Shown piece after piece: positions 5,762-59,920 of a stretch of DNA of 64,000 nucleotides. The notes under the pieces were generated by a model. The model had not been told where the DNA came from. It did not search any database and saw only the letters and a list, made by a program, of their open reading frames with translations. This DNA comes from Parcubacteria group bacterium (GTDB lineage Bacteria > Patescibacteriota > Minisyncoccia > Moranbacterales > UBA2206): NCBI GenBank assembly GCA_041645535.1, contig JBAZPT010000002.1, positions 77,605 to 141,604 on the forward strand, given 5' to 3'. How positions within the stretch are numbered: position 1 is the first letter of the stretch; every line of letters begins with the position of its first letter. Both the position numbers and the translations under genes were made by a program.

Positions 5762-7972
5762 TTATAATTTCTTGAGCGGGGCGACTGAAGCGGAGAGTTT
5801 TTTGAGGCCGGATTTGGAAAAAGCCACCGTGAGCGTATCGCCCTGCGAACCAACAATGAGTCCGTCGCCGAAAATTTCGTGGCGAACCCGGTCGCCATCT
5901 TTAAAAGTGTTTTTCTTCCGTATTTCCCTCTCCCCTTGGGAGAGGGTGTCCCGATGTGCATCGGGACGGGTGAGGGTTTTGAACTTTGTGATTTGTGATT
6001 TCCCATCTTTTGCATCCTGCAAAAGATGGACTGGTATATCATCCAAAAACCGCGACGGCGGATTGACCTGTGTCGAACCAAAAATATTCCGCTGGCTGGT
6101 GAACAAAAGATAAACTTTTTCTTTGGCGCGCGTGATGCCGACATACATCAGGCGCCTTTCTTCCTCCATTTCGCCTTGATCGAGCATACTTCTAGAATGC
6201 GGCAGGATTCCTTCTTCCAGTCCCGCGATAAAAACTACTTTAAATTCCAAACCTTTGGCGCTGTGGAGCGTCATTAAATGCACGGCATCTAAATTTTGAT
6301 TCACATTGTCCGTGTCGGACGCCAACGCGACTTCTTCTAAAAACATCCGCAAGGCCTCCCCGCCCTCATATTCGCTGTATTTTTTGGCAACAGTCAGCAA
6401 TTCGCGGATATTTTCCCGCCGCATTTCGCCTTCTTCCGTGCCGTCCAGCAGAAATTTTTCATAGCCGGATTCAGCAAAAACTTTTTCCATAAAATCCGTC
6501 AGCGGCAATTTGCGGATCGCCTCGTTCATCCTTTTGATAAAATCACAAAACTTGGCGATCGCCTCATATTTTGCATTCTGTATTTTATATCCAGCATCTT
6601 GGTTGTTTTTAAATCGCAGGCCTCCATCGATTAAATCAACTTTATTTTCTTTGGCAAATTTCAGCCAATATTTTACCGTAACTTCTCCGATACCCCTCTT
6701 GGGTTCATTAATTATTCGCTCCAGCGAAACCGCGTCAGTGAAATTTTGGATCAGGCGCAGATACGCGACGACATCTTTTATTTCTTTGCGCAAATAAAAT
6801 TTTATGCCGCCGATAATTCTATATGGAATGGAATTGGAAAGCATTACTTCTTCCATAATGCGGGACTGCGCGTTGGTGCGGTAGAGAACTACGAAATCAG
6901 AGAACTTATGCTTTTCTTTTTCCTGTTTTTGGTTGCGTAAAACTTCCGCGACCACGAATTCCGCCTCGTCTTTTTCGTCTCTGGCCTCATAGCAAGTTAT
7001 GAGATGCCCGCCGGCGCTTTCCGTCCAGATTTTTTTGTCTTTGCGATTGATATTTTTAGAAATCACGCCGTAAGCCGCGTCCAAAATGTTCTGCGTGGAA
7101 CGATAATTTTGCTCGAGTTTTATGACCTTGGCGCTAGGATAGTCCTTTTCAAAATCCAGGATGTTTTGGATATCCGCGCCTCTCCAAGAGTACACTCCTT
7201 GCCAGTCATCGCCCACGACGCAGATGTTGCCATTCTTTTTGGCCAGCATATTAATCAACGAATACTGCGCGTGATTAGTGTCCTGATATTCGTCCACCAT
7301 AATATAACGGAAAAAATTCTGGTATTTTTCCAAAACTTCCGGAAACTTTTGGAATAAATGAACCATCAGCATAATAATATCATCGAAATCAAGCGCGTTT
7401 TGCTCCTTGAGTTTTTTTTGGTAGGCACTATAGGTCTTGGAAACTGTTTCTTCATAATAACTGCCGATTGTTTCATGATAATGCACCGCGTCAATCAGTT
7501 CGTTCTTGGCCTTTGAAATCGCGTTGAGCATCGCCTGCGGTTTGAATTGTTCCATATCCAGCTCATTTTCCTTCATGGCTTTTTTCATCGTCGCCAACTG
7601 GTCCTGATCATCAAAAATATTAAACGATTTTTTATAGCCCAGTTTTTCGATCTCATGGCGCAAAATCCGCGCGCAGATGGAATGGAAAGTGCCCATAACT
7701 GGAAGTTCATAGTTCTTAGTTTTTAGTTCTTGGTTATTAACATTTAATAAAACTCTTACCCGTTCCTTCATTTCCTGCGCGGCTTTATTAGTAAAAGTCA
7801 CCGCCAGAATATTTCTCGGCGGAATCTTTTTTTCCTTGATGAGATAGGCTACGCGGTGCGTAAGCGCCCGGGTTTTGCCCGATCCCGCTCCGGCAATGAT
7901 CAAAACCGCCCCTTCGGTGGTTTCGACCGCTTCCCTCTGCGCGGGATTCAAGTTTTTTAGGATTTCATCCAC
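5762..7972 (-). CDS. pcrA: ATP-dependent DNA helicase PcrA/UvrD (SF1)
   Basis: 736-aa ORF with Walker A AGAGSGKTRALTHR, plus DEYQDT and VGDDWQ. C-terminal region is GDRVRHEIFGDGLIV. GTG start. Confidence 0.95.
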   Translation of the reverse strand: MDEILKNLNPAQREAVETTEGAVLIIAGAGSGKTRALTHRVAYLIKEKKIPPRNILAVTFTNKAAQEMKERVRVLLNVNNQELKTKNYELPVMGTFHSICARILRHEIEKLGYKKSFNIFDDQDQLATMKKAMKENELDMEQFKPQAMLNAISKAKNELIDAVHYHETIGSYYEETVSKTYSAYQKKLKEQNALDFDDIIMLMVHLFQKFPEVLEKYQNFFRYIMVDEYQDTNHAQYSLINMLAKKNGNICVVGDDWQGVYSWRGADIQNILDFEKDYPSAKVIKLEQNYRSTQNILDAAYGVISKNINRKDKKIWTESAGGHLITCYEARDEKDEAEFVVAEVLRNQKQEKEKHKFSDFVVLYRTNAQSRIMEEVMLSNSIPYRIIGGIKFYLRKEIKDVVAYLRLIQNFTDAVSLERIINEPKRGIGEVTVKYWLKFAKENKVDLIDGGLRFKNNQDAGYKIQNAKYEAIAKFCDFIKRMNEAIRKLPLTDFMEKVFAESGYEKFLLDGTEEGEMRRENIRELLTVAKKYSEYEGGEALRMFLEEVALASDTDNVNQNLDAVHLMTLHSAKGLEFKVVFIAGLEEGILPHSRSMLDQGEMEEERRLMYVGITRAKEKVYLLFTSQRNIFGSTQVNPPSRFLDDIPVHLLQDAKDGKSQITKFKTLTRPDAHRDTLSQGEREIRKKNTFKDGDRVRHEIFGDGLIVGSQGDTLTVAFSKSGLKKLSASVAPLKKL
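5926..6029. repeat. three consecutive perfect hairpins inside pcrA
   Basis: CCCTCTCCC-ctt-GGGAGAGGG (5926-5946), GTCCCGATG-tg-CATCGGGAC (5948-5967) and CCATCTTTTGCA-tcc-TGCAAAAGATGG (6003-6029). Confidence 0.8.
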
Positions 7973-23613: not shown

Positions 23614-24444
23614 ATGCCGACAAAACTCGGACAAAATTTCCTAAAGAATAGTGACATAGTCAAAAAAATTGTTGCAGCTGCTGATTTAAAAGCGGATGAT
23701 TTGGTTGTGGAAATCGGACCAGGAAAGGGAATTTTGACAGAAGAATTAGCAAAATATGCCGGAAAAGTTGTGGCCGTAGAATTGGATGAAAAGTTATGTA
23801 AATTGTTACTTAACAAATTCAGTAACAATAAAAATATTGAAATAATTGAAGGAGATATTTTAAAAAGAAACATTTCCGGCTTACTTGGACATTGGATGTC
23901 CAAGTCAAAAAAGACATCCGATGTCTTGCCAACCTACAAAGTTATCGCCAACTTGCCTTATTATATAACCTCTCCAATAATTAGATTATTTTTAGAAAGT
24001 GATTGTCCGCCAACTGAAATGATTTTGATGGTGCAAAAAGAAGTAGCGGAAAGGATAACTGCAAAAGCTGGACAAATGAGCATCCTGGCTGTTTCCGTAC
24101 AATACTATGCCGACGCGGAGATTTTATTTGAAGTTGGAAAAGAAAATTTTGATCCGATACCAAAAGTAAATAGTGCAATCGTAAAGATTGCTCCGCATTC
24201 TTCCTCGCCCTATCAAGGGAGAGGAACTAAAGGAGAGGGTGAGAATACAAAAAACTTTTTTAAAATCGTTCGCGCCGGATTTTCCGCTAAAAGAAAAACG
24301 CTGGTAAATAATTTATCCAGCAGTTTGCATTTGGACAAAAATTTGGTTGAAGAAAAAATAAAATCACTAAAAATAAAAAGCACAGCCAGAGCACAGGAGC
24401 TTTCAGTGGAAGATTGGAAGAAAATGGTTGAAATGTTTCCGTAA
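23614..24444 (+). CDS. rsmA: 16S rRNA (adenine1518/1519-N6)-dimethyltransferase
   Basis: GQNFLKNSDIVKKIV, VVEIGPGKGILTEEL, IANLPYYITSPI. Confidence 0.9.
   Translation: MPTKLGQNFLKNSDIVKKIVAAADLKADDLVVEIGPGKGILTEELAKYAGKVVAVELDEKLCKLLLNKFSNNKNIEIIEGDILKRNISGLLGHWMSKSKKTSDVLPTYKVIANLPYYITSPIIRLFLESDCPPTEMILMVQKEVAERITAKAGQMSILAVSVQYYADAEILFEVGKENFDPIPKVNSAIVKIAPHSSSPYQGRGTKGEGENTKNFFKIVRAGFSAKRKTLVNNLSSSLHLDKNLVEEKIKSLKIKSTARAQELSVEDWKKMVEMFP
23884..23928. repeat. double-hairpin TTGGACAT-family element inside rsmA
   Basis: CTTGGACAT-tgg-ATGTCCAAG (23884-23904) and AAGACAT-ccg-ATGTCTT (23911-23927). Near-identical copies lie at 43481-43531 (opposite orientation) and 45151-45180. Confidence 0.8.
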
Positions 24445-24472: not shown

Positions 24473-26116
24473 TTACAAAAAGATAATCTTCACCAAAATC
24501 AAACCATAAGCCGCCGCGATTCCCAGAACCCACCAAAAGAACTGGCGCGGTTTTGTTTTTTTATTCACAATTACCAGAAACGCGCCTGCGCCGCAAAGAA
24601 CCGCCCACCAAAAAAGCCTGAATTCATTCAGGAAGAAAACTGTAAGCACAAAGGAAACAAAAGCCCAGGCCGCCATAAAGAGCCTGCCTTTTTCTTCCCC
24701 TAAAAGCACCGGCAAGGTCCAGATATTATGCTTTTTGTCGGCCTCAATATCCTTGAAATCCTTGAGCGGCAAAGCCAGTGTCAAGGTCAAAAGAAGCAGT
24801 AAAATAACTCTCCAGGAAAGTCCCTGTATATTATTGTCGCCGGAAATAAGCGCGAAACCGATAAATAAAACAATGATTAAGTCCGCCGCCGCCAATAAAG
24901 TAGCCGCGACTGGCAGCCTTTTCAGATGGAATGGCGGGCTGGAATATATCCAGGCGATGACTTGATATACCAACAAGAGCGCGGCGAACTTTGGATTCAC
25001 GATAAATCCGCCAACCAGCGAGAGTATGAAAAAAATCAAACCTATCTGCCAGTATTCGCCTATCGTGATTATCTTTTTTGGCAAAGGGCGATCCTGGTTT
25101 GAAATAGCGTCGATGGAAAAATCATAAATATCATTAACCGCCACGGAAGCCAACCAGGCCAGCCAAATAGCGGCTAAAAGATTCAGCGCGGCAAAAGCGG
25201 AAAAAATATTCAGATTAAGATTTCCGGGATAAGCCAGGTAGCCCAGCCACAGCCCGGCGAAAAACAATCCTGTATGCCCCAGTAGCTGCGGCAACCTGGC
25301 GTTTCCGGCCAGCGCGCGAAATTTGTCTTTATTTATCCAAAAAAACAAAATGGCCAGAAGCCCCAGCAAGAGCGGAAAGTAAATTAAGTTAAGATTGAAG
25401 GAGAGAGCATGCTTGAGGCTCTCCGCGAATTCAACGCCGAAAATCGGCTTAGGCGCGCCCACAAATTGCACAATATCAATGCTGGTCACTGCGGTGATTT
25501 TTTTCGAACCCTGAAAAAAATGATAAACAAACGACAGCCAGGATGGGAAACTGACGAAGAAAAAAAGTATGCCGTATGCTCCCAGCGCCCCGGCGAGCGA
25601 TCGCCAAACATTTTTCGTTTTTAAAAATATAATCAAAAGGAATGCCAGCACGCAAACTGCTGCCATAATTCGCGTTCCAAAATATACCATTCCGGTCGGC
25701 AAATTTCCCAAAAAACTTACGCATTGCGGACCCAAGTCATGAAAACTGCTGAATAAATACGGGCTCCAAAAAATTCCCCCGCCGGTTTTTAGCATATCAA
25801 AAATTGGAGGGAAAATGATGATGAGCGATGCCCATAAGACCAAATTGCTCAACTTCAGAGGGTTTTCCTGGACGCATAGCGCCAGCCAAAGCCATAAAGA
25901 AATAATAACCAGCAGAAAAAAAAGCAGGTTGTGGGCATCAGTCGGACTGGCCAGTGTAAATTTTCCCTGCTGGGCCACGAAATTATCCAAAAAAAGCCTG
26001 ACGGCTATAATTCCCGCAAAGCTAAGAAACCAGACCAAGGGACTGGGAGCCTTTTCCGAAAAACTATCCGGCCATTTATTCATTTTTTGCATAAATGCCG
26101 TTACAACTTGATTCAT
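24473..26116 (-). CDS. polytopic membrane protein: ~290-aa N-terminal domain of unknown function fused to a UbiA-family prenyltransferase
   Basis: 547 aa with about 14 predicted TM helices. UbiA Asp-rich motif NDIYDFSIDAISNQDRPLP in the C-terminal half. Confidence 0.7.
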   Translation of the reverse strand: MNQVVTAFMQKMNKWPDSFSEKAPSPLVWFLSFAGIIAVRLFLDNFVAQQGKFTLASPTDAHNLLFFLLVIISLWLWLALCVQENPLKLSNLVLWASLIIIFPPIFDMLKTGGGIFWSPYLFSSFHDLGPQCVSFLGNLPTGMVYFGTRIMAAVCVLAFLLIIFLKTKNVWRSLAGALGAYGILFFFVSFPSWLSFVYHFFQGSKKITAVTSIDIVQFVGAPKPIFGVEFAESLKHALSFNLNLIYFPLLLGLLAILFFWINKDKFRALAGNARLPQLLGHTGLFFAGLWLGYLAYPGNLNLNIFSAFAALNLLAAIWLAWLASVAVNDIYDFSIDAISNQDRPLPKKIITIGEYWQIGLIFFILSLVGGFIVNPKFAALLLVYQVIAWIYSSPPFHLKRLPVAATLLAAADLIIVLFIGFALISGDNNIQGLSWRVILLLLLTLTLALPLKDFKDIEADKKHNIWTLPVLLGEEKGRLFMAAWAFVSFVLTVFFLNEFRLFWWAVLCGAGAFLVIVNKKTKPRQFFWWVLGIAAAYGLILVKIIFL

Positions 26117-26203
26117 ACTAGTTTAAAATTAAATAAAAATTAGCTGCTCTGTGGATTTTCTATGCAGTATGGCTAGAATTGTTCAAGTTGTAACGGTATA
26201 AAG

Positions 26204-40560: not shown

Positions 40561-41697
40561 ATGACCCCCTCTAAAAAAATCTTCATCGCTTCCACCGCCA
40601 TTTTGGCTTTTCTCCTGATTTTCTGGGGCATTTATTCTTTTTCTTTCAAAAAGACAACTCCTCCATCCAACGCGCCGACGGAAGAAAAAACCGAGCCGGT
40701 TGCCGTTCCAAAAACATCTGCTTCGCAAATCACAGCCATCAGCGATGAAGCCGTGCTGGCCCCGGTGCTCACGCCGGAAAAAAACGCCGTCAAATATTAT
40801 TCTAAAAACGACGGGCGGGCTTATCAAATAAACTTGGACGGCACTAATAAAAAAATCTTGAGCGACAAGGAACTCCCGGGTCTCGTTTCCATAGCCTGGT
40901 CGCCCGATACCAGCAAGGTAATTACCCGCTTTGAAAACAACGGCAAAAATAAATTTTATTATTACGACTACGGAAAAAACCAGGGCGTCCAGCTCAAGGA
41001 AAACCTGGACACCGTATTCTGGCAGAATGACAATAAAATTATTTACAAATATTTCGATCCTAAAACCAAAGAACGGACACTCAATATTTCCGATCCGGAC
41101 GGCTCCAATTGGAATAAAATAACCGACATTGCTTTTCGCAACCTCTCTCTGGCTCCCATCCCCAAGACCGGCCTGCTTTCTTTTTGGAATTCACCGGACG
41201 CTTTTTTTGAAACATCCTTCCTGTCAACTCCGATTATCGGCGGGGAAAAAAAGACCATATTGGCCGGAAAGTTCGGCGCTGATTATCTCTGGAGCCCCGA
41301 CGGCAACCTGATCTTAATTAGCAGCTCTCAGGAAAAAGCCAGCCCCCGGATGCAGCTGGCAATTGCCAATGATCGGGGCGGAGAATATAAAAATCTGGAC
41401 ATTCCTACCTTTATTTCCAAGGCCGCTTGGTCGCGCGACAATAAAACCGTTTATTACGCCCTCCCGGGAAATGTTCCGGCCAACGCTATTCTCCCTAATG
41501 ATTACAACGATAAAAAATTCCTTTCCACGGATACTTTCTGGAAAGTTAATGTCGCCAATGGAGAAAAGTCAAGAATCATCCCCTTGGATAAAATCAGCGG
41601 CCAATATGACGCAACCGATTTATTTTTGAATTCCGACGAAAGCCTGCTTTTTTTCATTAATCGCGCGGACGGGAAGTTGTATAAAATAGACCTATAA
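40561..41697 (+). CDS. membrane-anchored TolB-like beta-propeller (PD40/WD40-like repeats)
   Basis: Repeated WSPDTSKV, WSPDGNLILIS and AWSRDNKTVYY motifs. Confidence 0.65.
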   Translation: MTPSKKIFIASTAILAFLLIFWGIYSFSFKKTTPPSNAPTEEKTEPVAVPKTSASQITAISDEAVLAPVLTPEKNAVKYYSKNDGRAYQINLDGTNKKILSDKELPGLVSIAWSPDTSKVITRFENNGKNKFYYYDYGKNQGVQLKENLDTVFWQNDNKIIYKYFDPKTKERTLNISDPDGSNWNKITDIAFRNLSLAPIPKTGLLSFWNSPDAFFETSFLSTPIIGGEKKTILAGKFGADYLWSPDGNLILISSSQEKASPRMQLAIANDRGGEYKNLDIPTFISKAAWSRDNKTVYYALPGNVPANAILPNDYNDKKFLSTDTFWKVNVANGEKSRIIPLDKISGQYDATDLFLNSDESLLFFINRADGKLYKIDL

Positions 41698-42859
41698 AAA
41701 AATTAAGCCAAAAAATAACCGCCAGATCATTTTTGAAGTAAGTTGTGTCGACCAGGCCGTGAATTAAAAAATAAAGCATAATCGCGAAAGAAATAGCCCA
41801 CAGGCTGTTTTTTTCTTTGCCCAGCATTTCCTTGAGCCAGAAAAAAATTAAAGCTATAAAACCAACAAAGCTCAACATCCCGCCATACAGCCACCAGGCT
41901 AAATATAAATTATGCGGATGCGGAACCGCCCATTCAAGATAGGGCGGAAAATATTTCTGGTATTCCAGATATTTTTGCTGGAAATTCCCCGGTCCGATGC
42001 CAAAAGCAATGTTGTCTCCTAAAATTTTAGCCGCGCTGTTCCAAATCATAACGCGCGATGCCAACGATGAGTGAGGCGAGCTTTGGATATTATTGAGCTT
42101 TTCCGTGTTCTGCTGGCTGATAAACAAAATAAATATTATTATTAAGCCTCCAGTTGTTATCTTTTTGTTTATTTTTTTATTTTTTATTATTATAGTAATC
42201 ACTAAACTTAATATAAGCGCTATCCACGCCGCGTAAGAATAAGTCAGATAAAGAGCAACCAAAATTACAGCCAAGCCAATAACCGCGAAGGTCTTTTTCT
42301 TTTTTTGATCCCGTTTTTTAATACTAAATACTAAATACCAGATACTAATTATCAGTCCCGGCACCAGATACATCGCCAGATAATTTGGAGAATTAAAAAT
42401 GCCCTGCAGTCTGCCGTCAAAAGTTACTGCCCCGTAAATATAATATCCCAAACTTATAATAGCCACCGTCAAAGCTGAAAAATAATAAGCATAATAAATA
42501 TTTTTTCTTTTTTCTTCCGGGATACCAGCCGTGGCTATCCATGAAAACAGCAGTGGTAAAATAAACCAGCTTTTTATAATCCCGAAGCCGACCGCGTAAT
42601 TTTTATTCACCAAAATTGAAATCAATAATCCTAAAAAAATGAGGCTTAAACAAAGCACAATCTTCCTCCTAGAGCCGAGCTCTTGGAGTTTCCAAGAGCT
42701 CGGCTCTAGGAAAATAAACCCGCTGGCAATGACAGCCAACATTAAAATTTCCAGTGCGTTTGTCGGAACGCCAAAAACAGAAACTTTAACCAAGTAAGCC
42801 GGCAAAAGAAAAATTGTCGCGTAGATTAAAAATTCGGTTATTTTATTATTTTTCTCCAT
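41657..42859 (-). CDS. O-antigen ligase (Wzy_C)-like membrane protein
   Basis: 400 aa, more than 10 TM helices. Its 3' end overlaps the convergent gene by 41 nt. Confidence 0.7.
   Translation of the reverse strand: MEKNNKITEFLIYATIFLLPAYLVKVSVFGVPTNALEILMLAVIASGFIFLEPSSWKLQELGSRRKIVLCLSLIFLGLLISILVNKNYAVGFGIIKSWFILPLLFSWIATAGIPEEKRKNIYYAYYFSALTVAIISLGYYIYGAVTFDGRLQGIFNSPNYLAMYLVPGLIISIWYLVFSIKKRDQKKKKTFAVIGLAVILVALYLTYSYAAWIALILSLVITIIIKNKKINKKITTGGLIIIFILFISQQNTEKLNNIQSSPHSSLASRVMIWNSAAKILGDNIAFGIGPGNFQQKYLEYQKYFPPYLEWAVPHPHNLYLAWWLYGGMLSFVGFIALIFFWLKEMLGKEKNSLWAISFAIMLYFLIHGLVDTTYFKNDLAVIFWLNFFIGLFYTTSRPRD
42668..42710. repeat. perfect 20-bp-arm palindrome inside the ligase-like gene
   Basis: CCTAGAGCCGAGCTCTTGGA-gtt-TCCAAGAGCTCGGCTCTAGG, translated as EPSSWKLQELGSRR. 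Confidence 0.85.
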
Positions 42860-44147
42860 CTGTTTTCACCGCGCCTAGCGCGATTACAATTAACAAAAAC
42901 GGCAGGGCCTGCACCGAAAACAAGGCTGTTTCAAAAAGAGAATGCGCGGAAAATATAACCAGGCTCGTTGCTCCAGCCAGCCATATAACATTACTCTTTG
43001 ATTTTTTTATAAAACCGCTTATCGAAAAAATAATGAGCGCTATCCAAATTATAGTATTCAAAATTCCGGTTTCCGCGGCAATATCTAAATATAGATTATG
43101 CGCATAGAACGGCTCTCTGTAATCAGCTGTGGCTTTTATTTCCAGCGCATAATTACCAAGCCCGACTCCTAAAGGATTATTTTTAATTATTTCAACAGCT
43201 TCCTTCCACATTTCAAGCCGGCCCTGATTAGATCCTTCTTTGGCGTTGAAGCTTGTCAGAAAACGATTGCCGATCGGACTATTTAAAATAGACACGAAAA
43301 AAACGAACATCAACACGAAACCAATTAAAGCTTTTTTGAAATTCACTTTTTTCTTCCAAACTATAACTGCCAAAAAAAATAATAGCCCGGCTGCCAGACC
43401 GATATAGCCTCCGCGCGAAAACGACAGCAGGTCCGCCAAAAGAATCACCCCGGATAATATTAAATATATTTTTCGGCCGCCAAGACATCGGATGTCCTTT
43501 GCCCGCTTCGCTTGGACATCCGATGTCCAAAACAATCCCAGCGCCAACGGCAGCGCCATCCCCAAATAAATCGAAAGCATATGCGGATCAGGAAAAGTTG
43601 CAGTGGCGCGAAAAATTGTTTTTCCGCCCAGATTCACCAGCCAGCTAGGGTAGGCCAGCACCGCCTCTGAAAAAGCCGTTCCCAAAAAAACAGGCGCGAT
43701 AGTGCCAGCCCAAAATTTCAAAATATTATTTAGCCCCCAAATAAATTGAAGAGCAAATTGAATCAGCCCGACCAGCGCCGCCAGCCCCGCGCCCCAAGTA
43801 AGAAATTTGATAATTTTAATCCTATCGAAGTCGGACTTCGATATTGCCGTAGTTATGAAGTAAATTGGAAATATTGAAAGTAAAAACAAGAGTTTCCGGA
43901 GGCTCCAATCCGTATTTCTGGCCCACAAAAGCGAAAAAGCGCTCAGAAAGAGAAAAGAGAGGATTAAAAAGGTCTGAATTCGGACCGGCACACAAACCTG
44001 GCGGTTTTTGAGAGCCGAAATAAGCCACATTAAAGCCAAAATCAGGATGAACACCCTCCCGGAAGCCAAGTCCACCCCCTCCGCCGGATTAAGAGCGATT
44101 TGGAAAGGGATGTAGAGGCAAAAGAGTAATAAAAGCTTGTATATCAT
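42846..44147 (-). CDS. O-antigen ligase (Wzy_C)-like membrane protein (paralog)
   Basis: 433 aa polytopic protein. Overlaps the downstream paralog by 14 nt. Confidence 0.7.
   Translation of the reverse strand: MIYKLLLLFCLYIPFQIALNPAEGVDLASGRVFILILALMWLISALKNRQVCVPVRIQTFLILSFLFLSAFSLLWARNTDWSLRKLLFLLSIFPIYFITTAISKSDFDRIKIIKFLTWGAGLAALVGLIQFALQFIWGLNNILKFWAGTIAPVFLGTAFSEAVLAYPSWLVNLGGKTIFRATATFPDPHMLSIYLGMALPLALGLFWTSDVQAKRAKDIRCLGGRKIYLILSGVILLADLLSFSRGGYIGLAAGLLFFLAVIVWKKKVNFKKALIGFVLMFVFFVSILNSPIGNRFLTSFNAKEGSNQGRLEMWKEAVEIIKNNPLGVGLGNYALEIKATADYREPFYAHNLYLDIAAETGILNTIIWIALIIFSISGFIKKSKSNVIWLAGATSLVIFSAHSLFETALFSVQALPFLLIVIALGAVKTDGEK
43481..43531. repeat. double-hairpin TTGGACAT-family element inside the ligase-like gene
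   Basis: CAAGACATCGGATGTCCTTTGCCCGCTTCGCTTGGACATCCGATGTCCAAA. Its reverse complement aligns with 23884-23928. Confidence 0.8.
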
Positions 44148-44579: not shown

Positions 44580-45308
44580 TTAATATTTTAAAAAGTACTT
44601 CCTAAAATATCGGCGTTGCGATTTATAATAGTAGGCTTTCTGCGTTTTTTTGTCAAGAAAGGACTTGCCGCCAAAATGTTTAATCGTAAATTTCGGAAAA
44701 TAGAGAACTTTGTATCCGAGCTGGCGCGCGCGCCGGCAAAGATCGATGTCTTCAAAATACATAAAAAAATCTTCGTCGAAACCTTCGACTTTTTCAAAAA
44801 TTTCCTTTTTTACAAAAAGCGCGGCACCGCTAACCCAGTCAGCAGCAACATCTTTTTGGCTTTCCCAAATTTTTTTACTGTCAATTAGACCAATGTTGTT
44901 TTTAATCAGCCGCCAAAGAGTAAACTCTTCCCCAGCGCACCACCACTGCGTTTTTCCATTTTCCCTTACCAGTCTCGGTCCGACTATCGCCAGTTTTTTA
45001 TCTTTTTCAAATTCACTCAATAAATTCAAGATATTTTCTGAAACAATCTCCGTATCCGGATTGAGAAAACATAAAATTTCTCCTTGCGCCATGCGCGCGC
45101 CCAAATTGCACGCCGCGCCAAAACCAATATTTTTGCCGGTATTTATAAGCCTTGCTTCGCTTGGACATTGGATGTCCAAGTCATCATTATTAACCACAAT
45201 TATTTCATATTCCACGGCTAAAATTTTTTCTTTGATAGAAAAAATGCATTTGGCCAGATATTTTTCGCTTTGGTAGTTGACAATAATAATTGAAAGTTTC
45301 GGATTCAT
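44580..45308 (-). CDS. family 2 glycosyltransferase
   Basis: LSIIIVNYQSEKYL...VVNNDDLD...FEDIDLCRRARQLGYKV. Confidence 0.8.
   Translation of the reverse strand: MNPKLSIIIVNYQSEKYLAKCIFSIKEKILAVEYEIIVVNNDDLDIQCPSEARLINTGKNIGFGAACNLGARMAQGEILCFLNPDTEIVSENILNLLSEFEKDKKLAIVGPRLVRENGKTQWWCAGEEFTLWRLIKNNIGLIDSKKIWESQKDVAADWVSGAALFVKKEIFEKVEGFDEDFFMYFEDIDLCRRARQLGYKVLYFPKFTIKHFGGKSFLDKKTQKAYYYKSQRRYFRKYFLKY
45151..45180. repeat. single-hairpin TTGGACAT-family element inside the GT2 gene
   Basis: GCTTCGCTTGGACATTGGATGTCCAAG, translated as LDIQCPSEA. Confidence 0.75.
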
Positions 45309-49278: not shown

Positions 49279-49385
49279 ATCCCGTTACAACTTAAATAAT
49301 TGTAGTTATCCTTGTATTAAAAAATATCCCGAGCAAAGCTAGCTTAATCAAGTTACAACCAGGATGGATTAAGTTGTAACGGGAT
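49279..49385. repeat. CCCGTTA-family inverted-repeat element (copy C)
   Basis: ATCCCGTTACAACTTAA (49279-49295) pairs with TTAAGTTGTAACGGGAT (49369-49385): perfect 17 bp. It fills the rpmH-rnpA spacer. Confidence 0.8.
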
Positions 49386-55330: not shown

Positions 55331-55376
55331 AAGTTATTATAAATAGGCGGTGCTACGCAGCAAGTCGAGTAACAAT

Positions 55377-55691
55377 ATGGACAAAAAAATCATCAAACAC
55401 GCTTTTCTTTTGGCGTTGGGCGAGGGGGTCTACATAACTCTAGTCGCGCTCCTGATGTTTGGTATCCAGAAACTGTTCGGCGCGAAGCCCGATCCCGTTA
55501 TCGTTGCTCCAATCGCTTTCCTTCTGCTCTTCGTCATTTCCGCTGCAATTTCGGGAGCTTTGATTTTGGGGAGACCCGTTATGCTGTATCTGGACGGCAA
55601 GAAAAAAGACGCGCTCCAGCTTTTTGGATTCATATTGCTCTGGTTGATTTTATTTTTGGCCGTAGCGTTTTTGATTGTGGCTAGTAAGTAA
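55377..55691 (+). CDS. small three-TM membrane protein (copy 1)
   Basis: MDKKIIKHAFLLALGEGVYITLVALLMFG.... About 260 nt are nearly identical to 58975-59228. Confidence 0.6.
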   Translation: MDKKIIKHAFLLALGEGVYITLVALLMFGIQKLFGAKPDPVIVAPIAFLLLFVISAAISGALILGRPVMLYLDGKKKDALQLFGFILLWLILFLAVAFLIVASK

Positions 55692-56459: not shown

Positions 56460-56570
56460 GAGAGGCTCGCGATGGCGGGCGGGGCTAGTAAGTAATATGC
56501 TATGCCATGACGAAGTTTTAACGAAGTCTGGTTACGTAGCAGGTTACGTAGCAAAATCAGAAAATTGTGG
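56460..56570. repeat. solo copy (R1) of the GC-rich end + displaced gene tail + GGTTACGTAGCA repeats
   Basis: GAGAGGCTCGCGATGGCGGGCGGGG joined to CTAGTAAGTAATATGCT...GGTTACGTAGCAGGTTACGTAGCAAAAT. Matches 59637-59661 plus 59699-59784. Confidence 0.75.
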
Positions 56571-56641
56571 AAAGAAAAATAGAAAGTAGTCATCAAGCGC
56601 GTCCGCGGGGGAGTTTTAATTAAAGATTGGAAAAAATAAAA

Positions 56642-58861: not shown

Positions 58862-58974
58862 AATTCAGGCACTACTTTTCAGCTCTCATCGGGCTGTTTT
58901 TTTATTTAATTCCATTCCCTCGATTTTTTGATTTTTAGCCGGTTTGGGCGTAGAATTAAGGCAAGATCAACAAT

Positions 58975-59289
58975 ATGGACAAAAAAATCATCAAACACGC
59001 TTTTCTTTTGGCGCTGGGCGAGGGGGTCTACATAACTCTAGTCGCGCTCCTGATGTTTGGTATCCAGAAACTGTTCGGCGCGAAGCCTGATCCCGTCATC
59101 ATTGCTCCGATCGCTTTCCTTCTGCTCTTCGTCATTTCCGCTGCAATTTCGGGAGCTTTGATTTTGGGGAGACCCGTGATGCTGTATCTGGACGGCAAGA
59201 AAAAAGACGCGCTCCAGCTTTTTGGATTTATTTTGATGTGGTTAGTATTATTCTTAGCTATAGCATTTTTAATCATTATTAGATATTAA
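58975..59289 (+). CDS. small three-TM membrane protein (copy 2) with recoded 3' end
   Basis: Nearly identical to copy 1 up to 59228. From there the protein is conserved (LMWLVLFLAIAFLIIIRY versus LLWLILFLAVAFLIVASK) but the nucleotides diverge strongly. Confidence 0.6.
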   Translation: MDKKIIKHAFLLALGEGVYITLVALLMFGIQKLFGAKPDPVIIAPIAFLLLFVISAAISGALILGRPVMLYLDGKKKDALQLFGFILMWLVLFLAIAFLIIIRY

Positions 59290-59661: not shown

Positions 59662-59784
59662 TTGATATTGTTCCTGATCATCGCGTTTATCATTGTGGCT
59701 AGTAAGTAATATGCTTTGCCATGACGGAGTTTTAACGAAGTCTGGTTACGTAGCAAGTTACGTAGCAAAATTAGGAAATTGTGG
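59637..59784. repeat. repeat R2 (GC-rich end, displaced gene tail, GGTTACGTAGCA tandem)
   Basis: See R1. It contains an extra 37 nt (59662-59698) encoding the original ...LILFLIIAFIIVASK tail. Confidence 0.75.
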
Positions 59785-59920
59785 CGGGAAAAGCAGAGAG
59801 TTAAGGTAATGTGCATCAAAGGCGGGTTGTAAATCCGCGATTATCGGAGTAAAAAGTAAAGTTATAAAAAACAACCACCTAGTTTAAATAGGTGATTGTT
59901 TCCGAGCTATGAAGTTTAAA

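What the first reader, a model, noticed from the sequence alone, without database searches (positions are those of the whole stretch)
23884..23928. TTGGACAT double-hairpin element inserted in-frame in rsmA
CTTGGACAT-tgg-ATGTCCAAG followed by AAGACAT-ccg-ATGTCTT is 45 nt, or 15 codons, and codes LGHWMSKSKKTSDVL. It lies between the SAM-binding region and the NLPY motif, where this RsmA is about 12-15 residues longer than E. coli KsgA as I recall that sequence. Near-identical units occur at 43481-43531 in inverted orientation (translated SDVQAKRAKDIRCL) and at 45151-45180 (translated LDIQCPSEA). One nucleotide element is therefore read in different frames and orientations inside three unrelated genes. 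This is the hallmark of Rickettsia-palindromic-element-like intragenic mobile repeats, which to my knowledge are not described for CPR-type genomes.
Basis: partly seen in the sequence, partly recalled or inferred. Interest (0 to 1): 0.65.

Follow-up and report, generated by a model that had tools for sequence, protein, structure and literature searches.

The report
Short mobile hairpins inside Patescibacteria genes
The 45-base feature in rsmA is two copies of a roughly 20-base palindromic hairpin element that has been inserted in frame into several genes of this ultra-small (Patescibacteria) bacterium. The element belongs to a large, apparently undescribed family that sits next to its own dedicated transposase gene across that whole bacterial group.

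Summary
Five GACAT-NNN-ATGTC hairpins occur at exactly three sites in 64 kb, against 0.1-0.5 expected by chance. All five lie in frame inside rsmA, an O-antigen-ligase-like gene and a GT2 glycosyltransferase, and they are read in three different frames.

Orthologue comparisons show insertion polymorphism:
- rsmA orthologues carry 0, 1 or 2 hairpins.
- The ligase is empty in most orthologues of 58-79% identity, and carries 1 or 2 hairpins in others of 74-81%.

The unit is a single 19-23 nt hairpin, not a 45-nt double element.

At least 82 of the 119 stretches were labelled Patescibacteria, from many classes. About 14 of those hairpin-selected 8-kb blocks carry a 216-aa Y1/HUH (IS200-like) transposase bracketed by the hairpin.

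In the reciprocal test, 73 of 80 transposase-selected metagenome loci carry perfect hairpins. These lie about 40 nt upstream, just after the stop codon, and in frame at two conserved positions inside the transposase ORF. The hairpin has a constant foot (ACTTGG/CCAAGT) and a locus-specific apex.

This is a REP/RAYT-type system. It lacks a GTAG/CGTC tag and target-site duplications, and about 45% of copies are intragenic. I found no description of it for Patescibacteria. No transposase lies in this window, and catalysis is inferred. I rate it a new variant of a known kind.

The parts
23883..23905 (.). REP-type hairpin copy A1: ACTTGGACAT-TGG-ATGTCCAAGT. It has a 10-bp stem with the canonical foot ACTTGG and apex ACAT. 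It lies in frame in rsmA and encodes (L)LGHWMSK.
   Evidence: It matches the arm consensus derived from 65 transposase loci. The orthologue L001 has the same hairpin with loop TTG, and P0007 lacks it.
23911..23927 (.). Hairpin copy A2: AAGACAT-CCG-ATGTCTT, with a degenerate foot. It lies in frame in rsmA and encodes KTSDVL. It is a separate insertion of about 18 nt.
   Evidence: It is absent from L001, which carries A1. It is present in orthologues P0002, P0003, P0008 and P0010.
23614..24444 (+). Host gene rsmA/ksgA (16S rRNA dimethyltransferase, 276 aa). The inserts lie in the variable segment between strand beta4 (GDILK) and beta5 (YKVIANLPY).
   Evidence: The AlphaFold2 model has mean pLDDT 88.9, and the residue blocks that cover the insert (91-110) average 69-71. 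The insert lies between helix 87-100 and strand 108-113. This segment is 23-65 aa long among 43 orthologues.
43482..43499 (.). Hairpin copy B2: AAGACATCGGATGTCCTT (imperfect). It lies in frame in the ligase-like gene and encodes KDIRCL on the - strand.
43505..43530 (.). Hairpin copy B1 with its shared 5' extension: GCTTCGC + TTGGACAT-CCG-ATGTCCAA. It encodes WTSDVQAKR on the - strand.
   Evidence: Orthologues P0122 and P0123 share B1+B2, P0129 has one hairpin, and P0124-P0128 and others lack both, leaving a 14-aa gap. DNA of the empty site (L121) and the filled site (L122) is shown.
42846..44147 (-). Host gene: Wzy_C / O-antigen-ligase-like membrane protein (433 aa).
   Evidence: PF04932.
45154..45182 (.). 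Hairpin copy C with the same GCTTCGC extension: GCTTCGC + TTGGACAT-TGG-ATGTCCAA + GT. It lies in frame in GT2 and encodes LDIQCPSEA on the - strand.
   Evidence: Orthologues carry LDIxCPS, LEAELPS or LDLGGLS at the same length. L121 DNA has TTGGAAGC-CGA-GCTTCCAA at the identical position.
44580..45308 (-). Host gene: family-2 glycosyltransferase (242 aa).
   Evidence: PF00535.

Best explanation
The rsmA feature is two adjacent copies of a miniature palindromic element of the REP type (repetitive 'extragenic' palindrome).

Anatomy. Each unit is a 19-23 nt near-perfect palindrome. It has a constant foot, (C)ACTTGG...CCAAGT(G), a short variable apex (here ACAT/ATGT) and a roughly 3-nt loop.

Proposed mechanism. 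The family is spread across Patescibacteria. I propose it is copied in trans by a dedicated single-domain Y1/HUH tyrosine transposase of about 216 aa, a distant relative of the REP-associated tyrosine transposases (RAYTs). That gene is bracketed by the cognate hairpin and also carries it in frame at two fixed positions. By analogy with IS200/IS605 and E. coli TnpA(REP), the enzyme would recognise the folded hairpin on single-stranded DNA, cut at its foot and rejoin it elsewhere without a target-site duplication.

Fate of copies. Copies land between genes, where many have extended stems and T-runs and look like terminators. They also land inside genes. In these very gene-dense genomes, only insertions that keep the frame, contain no stop codon and fall in tolerant loops survive. 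The ACAT core with a CCG/CGG/TGG loop is stop-free in all six frames. Surviving copies are then presumably translated as 6-8-residue peptides.

What is shown: the repeat, its in-frame position in three genes, insertion polymorphism among orthologues, the two-way association with the transposase gene, genome-specific variants, and the absence of target duplications.

What is inferred: that this transposase does the moving, the single-strand mechanism, that the inserts are translated, and that this particular genome still has the transposase (none lies in the 64-kb window).
For: 1. The repeat is non-random. There are 5 hairpins at 3 sites against 0.1-0.5 expected. The generalised family pattern (foot TTRG + any 4-bp apex) finds only these three canonical copies, all with apex ACAT, against 0.015 expected.

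2. It acts at the nucleotide level. Three frames are used in the window. Among 64 intragenic copies in other genomes the frames split 31/19/14.

3. Insertion polymorphism:
- rsmA is empty in P0007, has one hairpin in P0005, P0006, P0015 and P0067, and has two in P0001, P0002, P0003, P0008 and P0010. The DNA was read.
- The ligase has two hairpins in P0121-P0123, one in P0129 and none in 20 other orthologues of 58-79% identity. The DNA was read.

4. Distribution. At least 82 are labelled as Patescibacteria lineages (Moran-, Pacei-, Nealson-, Nomura-, Saccharibacteria, Falkow-, Giovannoni-, Niyogi-, Kaiser-, Collierbacteria). About 14 are in unrelated taxa, consistent with chance.

5. Transposase link, forward direction. 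In L057 a 216-aa ORF matches Pfam Y1_Tnp (31.4 bits, cut-off 23) and carries the HUH motif NHYH and the GYTKYFN tyrosine motif. It is flanked by the hairpin at -34 nt and just after the stop, and holds two in-frame copies. tblastn finds homologues beside the hairpin in about 14 of the 119 hairpin-selected 8-kb blocks.

6. Transposase link, reciprocal direction. Of 80 metagenome loci selected only by the transposase (567 relatives found):
- 73 have a perfect hairpin of at least 8 bp in or within 130 nt of the ORF.
- 61 have at least 2 copies of the same hairpin, and 30 have at least 3.
- The copies sit at about -40, +170-200, +430-470 and +630-680 nt from the start codon.

7. Modular hairpin. 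The arm consensus over 65 loci is ACTT(G/A)G (information 0.8-1.4 bits per position), followed by two variable positions, then R-Y. The same apex is used at all positions of one locus.

8. Genome-specific 'dialects'. Flank-plus-loop identity is 7.6 of 11 within a genome and 5.0 between genomes. None of 1000 permutations reached this difference.

9. There is no target-site duplication. Flanking direct repeats are at or below control level. This fits an HUH/Y1 enzyme rather than a DDE transposase.

10. The only NCBIfam match of the transposase is 'REP-associated tyrosine transposase'.

11. In the RsmA model the two residue blocks that cover the insert (91-110) average pLDDT 69-71. The insert lies between a helix and strand beta5, in a segment whose length varies from 23 to 65 aa among orthologues.
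Against: - No transposase homologue is in the 64-kb window (tblastn; profile HMM). The rest of the roughly 429-kb source contig could not be read, so activity in this genome is unproven.
- The transposase scores only 22-36 bits against the NCBIfam RAYT model (cut-off 80). It has no significant sequence match to any solved structure; the best is ISDra2 TnpA at E = 0.28 over the HUH motif. Calling it a RAYT rests on architecture, not on close homology.
- Copy density is low compared with classical REPs. There are 5 copies in 64 kb here, and 14 cognate copies in 354 kb of sequence flanking the transposase loci.
- Different apex variants occupy the very same site in orthologues of rsmA and GT2. 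Simple one-off transposition does not explain this. It needs repeated targeting of one site, conversion between copies, or compensatory evolution under selection for the hairpin.
- Many stems extend beyond the conserved part with locus-specific complementary bases: 42 of 142 have at least 4 extra bp. The model does not predict this.
- Coding versus intergenic status was assigned with a longest-ORF heuristic, not a gene finder.
Confidence: 0.75

Rival explanations
1. The hairpins are the ends of an autonomous IS200/IS605-type insertion sequence (transposase plus left and right hairpins). The solitary intragenic copies would be leftovers of whole-element insertion and excision, or solo ends, and not independently mobile REPs.
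For: The protein is a Y1_Tnp-family enzyme. Its weak best structural-sequence match is ISDra2 TnpA. The gene is bracketed by hairpins, as an IS200/IS605 element is. The copy number of dispersed hairpins is low. There is no target duplication.
Against: - The same hairpin, not distinct left and right ends, flanks the gene and also sits inside it.
- Solitary copies far outnumber transposase genes. About 105 of the 119 hairpin-selected blocks have no transposase.
- The window has 5 copies and no transposase.
- Peel-and-paste excision of IS200/IS605 elements is precise and is not expected to leave a hairpin behind (established knowledge of the family).
- The only curated family hit is RAYT.
Confidence: 0.1
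2. The hairpin is mainly a functional cis-element kept by selection, such as a terminator or RNA-stability hairpin, or a site bound by a conserved host protein. It would spread and be homogenised by recombination or gene conversion rather than by transposition. Its link to the Y1 gene would reflect regulation of that gene.
For: - Copies are about 5-fold enriched per nucleotide in intergenic DNA: 46% of copies lie in 14% of the sequence.
- Many intergenic copies have extended stems followed by T-runs, for example L045, L046 and L094.
- At orthologous sites the stem changes on both sides and stays paired. The GT2 site has ACAT/ATGT in the window and AAGC/GCTT in L121. The rsmA site has TTAGACCTC/GAGGTCTAA in L204. 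This looks like selection for structure.
- The foot is conserved across a whole superphylum.
Against: - Clean insertions relative to empty orthologous sites inside conserved genes are hard to obtain by conversion alone.
- A terminator inside rsmA or a glycosyltransferase gene would be harmful.
- The tight four-position architecture around a transposase gene has no obvious regulatory rationale.
- It matches known REP-RAYT units (PMC2817692, PMC3116915).
Confidence: 0.1
3. The motif is a DNA-uptake-signal-like sequence that accumulates through biased uptake and recombination in naturally competent Patescibacteria.
For: It is a short motif shared across a clade with genome-specific 'dialects'. 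It occurs inside genes in several frames. It is often paired and terminator-like, as Neisseria DUS are (general knowledge).
Against: - The density is far too low. There are about 5 copies per 64 kb, against roughly one per kb for USS/DUS (general knowledge).
- Copies are insertions, not substitutions.
- The association with a Y1 transposase is strong and reciprocal.
- The specific part (the apex) changes between close relatives.
Confidence: 0.03
4. It is a chance similarity or an assembly artefact.
For: None beyond the short length of the motif.
Against: No shuffle reached the observed counts. The same element occurs at the same sites in independently assembled orthologous contigs from other samples. 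The reading frames are intact.
Confidence: 0.01

Closest known systems
REP / REPIN elements with their RAYT (TnpA-REP) transposases, e.g. E. coli REP-YafM and Pseudomonas REPIN-RAYT (PMC2817692, PMC3116915, PMC3333891, PMC5581495)
   Same: Both involve short palindromic hairpins dispersed in the genome. Both have a Y1/HUH transposase gene bracketed by the cognate hairpins. Both show genome-specific sequence variants, pairs of adjacent copies, no target-site duplication, and intergenic copies that resemble terminators.
   Different: - There is no GTAG or CGTC tag.
- The hairpin is an almost perfect 19-23 nt palindrome with a constant foot and a switchable apex.
- About 45% of copies lie inside ORFs.
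- Cognate copies sit in frame at two fixed positions inside the transposase ORF itself.
- The copy number is low.
- The protein is only distantly related to curated RAYTs, at 22-36 bits against a cut-off of 80.
- The host is Patescibacteria, for which I found no such report.
Intragenic GTAG/CGTC REPs (Opitutus terrae, Thioalkalivibrio, Thauera and others; Di Nocera et al. 2013, PMC3733652)
   Same: These are REP monomers and dimers inserted in frame in known genes. Orthologues show shorter proteins without the insert, and insertion is presumed to be tolerated in flexible regions.
   Different: They belong to a different sequence superfamily (tagged REPs) in different phyla. The paper reports intragenic copies as a minority. 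There is no report of copies inside the transposase gene, or of apex switching at orthologous sites.
Rickettsia palindromic elements (RPE)
   Same: They are palindromic repeats inserted in frame into unrelated, often essential genes, and are thought to be translated and tolerated on protein surfaces (PMC10969869).
   Different: RPE-1-type elements are about 100-150 bp, encode 30-50 residues, are restricted to Rickettsia and have no identified cognate transposase. Here the unit is 19-23 nt (6-8 residues) and has a candidate transposase. There is no sequence similarity.
IS200/IS605 insertion sequences (IS608, ISDra2)
   Same: They have a Y1/HUH transposase with an HUH motif and a catalytic tyrosine. 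They recognise hairpins, insert single-stranded DNA without duplication, and have subterminal hairpins at both ends.
   Different: Those elements move as whole units with distinct left and right ends and a TnpA of about 140 aa. Here the protein is about 216 aa, the same hairpin is used at both ends and inside the gene, and the hairpin alone is the dispersed unit.

Membership tests
REP-RAYT system | The associated protein is a Y1/HUH tyrosine transposase (Y1_Tnp fold, HUH motif, catalytic Tyr). | tested here: met
   It matches Pfam PF01797 at E = 2e-7, 31.4 bits against a cut-off of 23. N-H-(Y/F)-H is conserved in all 10 aligned sequences (N, H and H invariant; Y in 9 of 10), as are G-Y..(Y)F-N and R.G.L.QG.
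REP-RAYT system | The protein reaches the curated NCBIfam threshold for 'REP-associated tyrosine transposase' (NF047646). | tested here: not met
   It is the only family hit, but scores 22.5-36.1 bits against a cut-off of 80. The protein is a distant clade, not a member of the curated equivalog.
REP-RAYT system | The transposase gene is flanked on both sides by the repeated palindrome. | tested here: met
   L057, L048, L051, L119, L120, L089 and L025 show it. Among 78 loci with enough flanking sequence, 63 have a hairpin upstream and 58 downstream. In 61 of 80 loci the same hairpin occurs at least twice.
REP-RAYT system | The same palindrome is dispersed at many other places in the same genome. 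| tested here: met
   There are 5 copies at 3 sites in this window without a transposase. Several genomes contributed 3-10 copies from different contigs, for example JACOYO, PWRH, MFSE and CAZJOI. Absolute copy numbers per genome were not obtainable.
REP-RAYT system | A conserved GTAG or CGTC tetranucleotide tag lies at the hairpin foot. | tested here: not met
   GTAG occurs in 4 and CGTC in 1 of 284 flanks. The conserved foot is (C)ACTTGG instead.
REP-RAYT system | The copies are predominantly extragenic. | tested here: not met
   64 of 142 copies lie well inside ORFs of at least 90 aa, and 65 are intergenic. Per nucleotide they are still about 5-fold enriched between genes. All 5 copies in the window are intragenic.
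REP-RAYT system | The transposase is single-copy per genome. | not tested
   Only 8-kb blocks of the genomes were available.
REP-RAYT system | The enzyme binds and cleaves the cognate hairpin as single-stranded DNA. | not testable with these tools
   This needs biochemistry.
REP-RAYT system | The cognate transposase is present in the genome that holds this window. | tested here: inconclusive
   It is absent from the 64 kb. The source contig is about 429 kb and could not be read.
Rickettsia palindromic elements | The element is about 100-150 bp and belongs to one of the RPE sequence families of Rickettsia. | tested here: not met
   The unit is 19-23 nt. The host is Candidatus Moranbacteria/Patescibacteria.
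Rickettsia palindromic elements | It is inserted in frame into unrelated protein-coding genes. | tested here: met
   rsmA, the Wzy_C-like gene and GT2 carry it here. Many other ORFs in other genomes do too. Translation itself is not testable here.
DDE-type MITE | It has terminal inverted repeats plus a target-site duplication. | tested here: not met
   Flanking direct repeats are not above the control: 2-nt repeats 9 vs 8, 3-nt repeats 2 vs 3, out of 142 copies.
IS200/IS605 insertion sequence | The whole element (transposase plus distinct left and right ends) is the multi-copy mobile unit. | tested here: inconclusive
   The same hairpin sits at both ends and inside the gene. Solitary hairpins greatly outnumber transposase genes. 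Per-genome copy number of the full unit is unknown.
DNA uptake sequences (USS/DUS) | The motif is very dense (about one per kb) and arises by substitution. | tested here: not met
   There are 5 copies in 64 kb. The copies are insertions relative to empty orthologous sites.

The most novel reading that the evidence does not exclude
Patescibacteria carry a superphylum-wide, modular hairpin-transposase system. A constant foot (ACTTGG) and a switchable 4-5 nt apex would form a recognition code that co-varies with the enzyme. The transposase gene keeps its own cognate hairpins in frame, perhaps for self-regulation or self-targeting. When specificity changes, existing copies would be rewritten in place by transposase-driven exchange or conversion. 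That would include copies inside essential genes such as rsmA. On this reading the elements are a continuing, templated source of loop variation in the proteins of these minimal genomes, rather than passive junk.
Probability: 0.25. Interest if true: 0.8.

Novelty: new variant of a known kind. Interest (0 to 1): 0.62.

Why it matters
REP-RAYT systems have been studied almost only in Proteobacteria and a few other cultured groups, and REPs are by name extragenic.

Here a REP-like family with its own Y1 transposase is found across Patescibacteria, organisms with roughly 1-Mb genomes and almost no intergenic space. About half of the copies sit in frame inside genes, including a universally conserved rRNA methyltransferase and the transposase gene itself.

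This matters in three ways:
1. It explains a class of odd short peptides (LGHxMSK, WTSDVQ, LDIxCPS, LEAELPS and others) and length variation in Patescibacteria proteins. These can mislead alignment, annotation and structure prediction.
2. It supplies hundreds of natural transposase-hairpin pairs that share a foot but differ in apex. That makes the recognition rules of HUH/Y1 enzymes directly testable, and such enzymes are of interest as single-strand DNA tools.
3. The occupation of one orthologous site by different apex variants raises a concrete question about how hairpin copies are replaced or homogenised.

Tried and rejected
- Literature. Searches for the sequence itself, for 'candidate phyla radiation' plus 'palindromic element', and for RAYT or REPIN plus Patescibacteria terms found nothing relevant. 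Hits for 'rayt' were unrelated papers. A 2024 MITE review and the 2018 HUH phylogenomics paper do not mention these phyla.
- Rfam. The gathering-threshold scan of the window found only one tRNA and no known RNA family at the sites.
- Solved structures. The transposase has no significant sequence match, either as a single sequence or as a profile. The best is ISDra2 TnpA at E = 0.28.
- Tool restrictions. Structure prediction and the representative-protein search accept only window proteins, so I could not use them for the transposase.
- Orthologue DNA. Two JGI orthologue contigs (P0003, P0007) could not be fetched because the files were too large. The empty rsmA site is therefore documented at the protein level only.
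- Viral contigs. Only 5 matches of the 19-mer were found in IMG/VR, so there is no sign of a phage vector.
- GTAG/CGTC tags and target-site duplications were looked for and not found.
- TIGR arrays, which surfaced in the literature search, were considered for the clustered hits with about 220-nt spacing. I rejected this because those clusters are the transposase gene with its four hairpins.
- The 45-nt 'double hairpin as one unit' reading was rejected on orthologue evidence.
Full report
**1. The observation**

The window reads CTTGGACAT-TGG-ATGTCCAAG, then tcaaaa, then AAGACAT-CCG-ATGTCTT at 23884-23928. This lies inside a 276-aa ORF (23614-24444, +) whose relatives are RsmA/KsgA of Candidatus Moranbacteria (Patescibacteria/CPR).

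The other two sites are also as reported:
- Two hairpins lie at 43482-43530, inside a Wzy_C/O-antigen-ligase-like ORF (42846-44147, -).
- One hairpin lies at 45160-45180, inside a GT2 glycosyltransferase ORF (44580-45308, -).

Pattern searches find these five hairpins and nothing else in the 64 kb. The chance expectation is 0.12-0.50, and no shuffle reached the observed count.

Sites A and C share 24 of 24 nt. Sites B and C share an additional GCTTCGC next to the hairpin.

The palindrome is read in three different frames: LGHWMSK, WTSDVQ and LDIQCPS. It is therefore a DNA-level element, not a protein motif.

**2. Insertion polymorphism**

*rsmA.* Forty-three Moranbacteria RsmA orthologues differ greatly in the segment between GDILK and YKVIANLPY, which is 23-65 aa long.
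- P0007 has no insert (LISNYKV).
- P0005, P0006, P0015 and P0067 have one ACAT-type hairpin (LGHxMSK).
- P0001, P0002, P0003, P0008 and P0010 have that hairpin plus the second one (KTSDVLP).
- At the DNA level, the 75%-identical orthologue L001 has ACTTGGACAT-TTG-ATGTCCAAGT but lacks the roughly 18 nt of hairpin 2. The two hairpins are therefore separate units.

*Ligase.* P0122 and P0123 (79-81% identity) share the double insert. P0129 has a single hairpin. Twenty other orthologues (58-79% identity) show a clean 14-aa gap. The empty (L121) and filled (L122) sites were read as DNA.

*GT2.* There is no length difference at this site. Orthologues carry LDIxCPS, LEAELPS or LDLGGLS. In L121 the DNA at the identical position is GAC-TTGGAAGC-CGA-GCTTCCAA-GTG. 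The foot is the same and the inner stem differs on both sides.

*Variants at the rsmA site.* The same behaviour is seen in rsmA:
- L204 has TTAGACCTC-G-GAGGTCTAA.
- L203 has an imperfect TTGGAAGT/GCCTCCAA.
- L205 has a (ACAACTT)x5 tandem repeat instead.

**3. Distribution**

I scanned one genome per species (185,579 species) for TTGGACATNNNATGTCCAA.
- At least 82 stretches are labelled as Patescibacteria lineages of many classes.
- 16 are unnamed 'bacterium' MAGs.
- 7 are labelled Bdellovibrionales or Bacteriovoracaceae. These have typical flanks and several hits per genome, so they may be true carriers or mislabelled bins.
- About 14 are unrelated taxa, as expected by chance for a 16-base pattern.

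Loops are mostly CCG/CGG, and some genomes use other variants throughout. Flank-plus-loop identity is 7.6 of 11 positions within a genome and 5.0 between genomes, and none of 1000 permutations reached this difference.

Using a longest-ORF heuristic, 64 of 142 copies lie well inside ORFs (frames split 31/19/14) and 65 are intergenic. By the same heuristic 86% of the sequence is coding. Copies are therefore about 5-fold enriched between genes, yet nearly half are intragenic.

Only 5 matches occur in IMG/VR viral contigs.

**4. The associated gene**

Loci with four hits at about 220-280 nt spacing turned out to be one gene. In L057 it is a 216-aa ORF with:
- a hairpin 34 nt upstream of the start codon;
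- a hairpin just after the stop codon;
- two in-frame copies inside the ORF, encoding LGHSMSK and LGHRMSK.

The protein matches Pfam Y1_Tnp (IS200-like) above the gathering score. Its only NCBIfam match is 'REP-associated tyrosine transposase', well below that model's cut-off. N-H-(Y/F)-H (the HUH motif; N, H and H invariant) and GY..YFN are conserved in all 10 aligned sequences.

tblastn finds homologues beside the hairpin in about 14 of the 119 hairpin-selected 8-kb blocks. For a roughly single-copy gene in a roughly 1-Mb genome, about one such block would be expected by chance.

**5. The reciprocal test**

I searched JGI/ENA metagenome contigs with the alignment of these proteins. This gave 567 relatives, of which 80 loci were kept, mostly from groundwater.
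- 73 of 80 have a perfect hairpin of at least 8 bp in or within 130 nt of the ORF.
- 61 have at least two copies of the same hairpin, and 30 have at least three.
- The copies sit at four stereotyped positions: about -40, +170-200, +430-470 and +630-680 nt.

Within a locus the copies are alike. Between loci the apex differs: ACAC, AAAC, AAGC, AGGC, GGAC, CGGT, CAAC, and also ACAT as in this window.

The arm consensus over 65 loci is (C)(C/A)-A-C-T-T-(G/A)-G, then two free positions, then R-Y, then the loop. The window's copy A1 (ACTTGG-AC-AT) fits this exactly.

A generalised search (foot TTRG plus any paired 4-bp apex) finds only the three ACAT copies in the window, against 0.015 expected. This genome therefore uses one apex.

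**6. What the element lacks**

There is no GTAG or CGTC tag. There is no target-site duplication. The window contains no transposase, by tblastn or by profile HMM.

**7. Interpretation**

The anatomy is that of a REP-RAYT unit: a Y1/HUH transposase gene bracketed by short palindromes that are also dispersed in the genome. This architecture is described in PMC2817692, PMC3116915, PMC3333891 and PMC5581495.

By analogy with IS200/IS605 and E. coli TnpA(REP), the enzyme would act on the folded hairpin in single-stranded DNA and rejoin it elsewhere without duplication. This step is inferred, not shown.

In genomes that are about 86% coding, many landings fall in genes. Only insertions that keep the frame, are free of stop codons and fall in tolerant places would persist.
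- The ACAT core with CCG, CGG or TGG loops has no stop codon in any of the six frames (direct reading of the sequence).
- The RsmA model (mean pLDDT 88.9) has average pLDDT 69-71 over the residue blocks that cover the insert (91-110). The insert lies between helix 87-100 and strand 108-113, in the most length-variable segment of the family.
- The ligase insert lies between predicted hydrophobic segments in a Lys/Arg-rich stretch. I infer this is a loop.

**8. What the simple model does not explain**

- Different apex variants occupy the same orthologous site in rsmA, in GT2 and in the transposase gene itself. This requires repeated insertion at one spot, replacement or conversion between copies, or compensatory change under selection for pairing.
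- Many stems continue beyond the conserved foot with locus-specific complementary bases: 42 of 142 have at least 4 extra bp, and the longest has 12.
- A related case in the window is the 45-nt perfect palindrome at 42667-42711. Its right arm (ELGSRR) is conserved in orthologues. Its left arm is unrelated in L122, so it looks like an inverted copy of the right arm. This suggests template-switch-type stem extension, but it rests on one example.

**9. Comparison with known families**

Intragenic REPs have been described in other phyla, and RPE-4 and RPE-6 of Rickettsia were equated with CGTC-tagged REPs (PMC3733652). In-frame palindromic inserts are therefore not new in kind.

What differs here:
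- the sequence family (a constant ACTTGG foot and no tag);
- the high intragenic share;
- the cognate copies inside the transposase ORF;
- the breadth across Patescibacteria;
- the absence of any report I could find.

It is not an RPE, which is 100-150 bp and Rickettsia-specific. It is not a DDE-type MITE, because there is no target duplication.

Whether the protein should be called a RAYT or a new Y1 clade is open, because it fails the curated equivalog threshold.

**10. Verdict**

It needs correction on the unit (single hairpins), on the family (REP with a Y1 transposase) and on the scope (Patescibacteria-wide).

I rate it a new variant of a known kind, with interest of about 0.6. The main open points are biochemical proof, copy numbers per genome, and the mechanism that swaps apex variants at fixed sites.

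Noticed in passing
window 42667-42711 (inside ORF 41657-42859, - strand): A 45-nt perfect palindrome with a 21-bp stem (DNA fold -26.5 kcal/mol, z = -9.1) lies in frame in a second Wzy_C-like gene and encodes EPSSWKLQELGSRR. Orthologue L121 keeps it with a different apex. Orthologue L122 has only the right arm and an unrelated left arm of similar length. The left arm therefore looks like an inverted copy of the right arm, as a template switch would produce.
   Followed up: partly
window 5926-6029 (inside ORF 5762-7972, - strand): Three adjacent perfect palindromes lie in frame near the C-terminal end of a 737-aa ORF: CCCTCTCCCCTTGGGAGAGGG, GTCCCGATGTGCATCGGGAC and CCATCTTTTGCATCCTGCAAAAGATGG. 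Overall the window has 31 perfect hairpins with stems of at least 8 bp, against 12.3 in Markov-1 simulations.
   Followed up: partly
window 24190-24250 (rsmA residues ~195-213): A second variable insert in RsmA (PHSSSPYQGRGTKGEGEN, purine-rich DNA) is predicted to be disordered (pLDDT about 53). It is absent or different in many orthologues.
   Followed up: partly
RsmA orthologues (alignment A1); L203, L204, L205: The beta4-beta5 segment of RsmA is a hot spot. Among 43 Moranbacteria orthologues it is 23-65 aa long and carries peptides typical of several other palindromic or repeat families (PHP..RERGLGGEG, VETRQCLVST, GSTL..KVEPW, FQFSIFNQ). L205 has a (ACAACTT)x5 tandem repeat there. Other orthologues have further inserts elsewhere in the protein (CLPAGRR; SPSEIPAESRSAKRISRG).
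   Followed up: partly
L057 3975-4625; L048, L051, L119, L120; L123-L202: The Y1 transposase ORFs carry their own cognate hairpin in frame at two conserved positions (about nt 170-200 and 430-470). The apex there matches the flanking copies of the same locus. I am not aware of this having been described for RAYT genes.
   Followed up: yes
window 26096-26196 and 49281-49383: Two intergenic regions each hold an inverted pair of the 12-mer CCGTTACAACTT / AAGTTGTAACGG about 75-90 nt apart. The second region has an extra partial copy. This may be a shared operator or promoter-associated motif.
   Followed up: no
window 55371-55670 / 58969-59268, and 56483-56587 / 59697-59801: Direct repeats of 300 nt (94% identity) and 105 nt (90% identity) lie about 3.2-3.6 kb apart, indicating a recent tandem duplication of a gene block.
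   Followed up: no
L013, L026, L033, L042, L095, L021, L051 (6195), L105: Some hairpin copies occur as head-to-head tandems, nested copies or partial duplications of one arm, for example ATGTCCAAGTATAG repeated three times in L051. This suggests slippage or repeated cleavage and rejoining at the hairpin.
   Followed up: no
L020, L039, L054, L069, L074, L100 (contigs labelled Bdellovibrionales): Several MAGs labelled Bdellovibrionales carry typical copies (cac...gtg flanks, TGA/TCA loops) on multiple contigs. Either the family extends beyond Patescibacteria or these bins are mislabelled.
   Followed up: no
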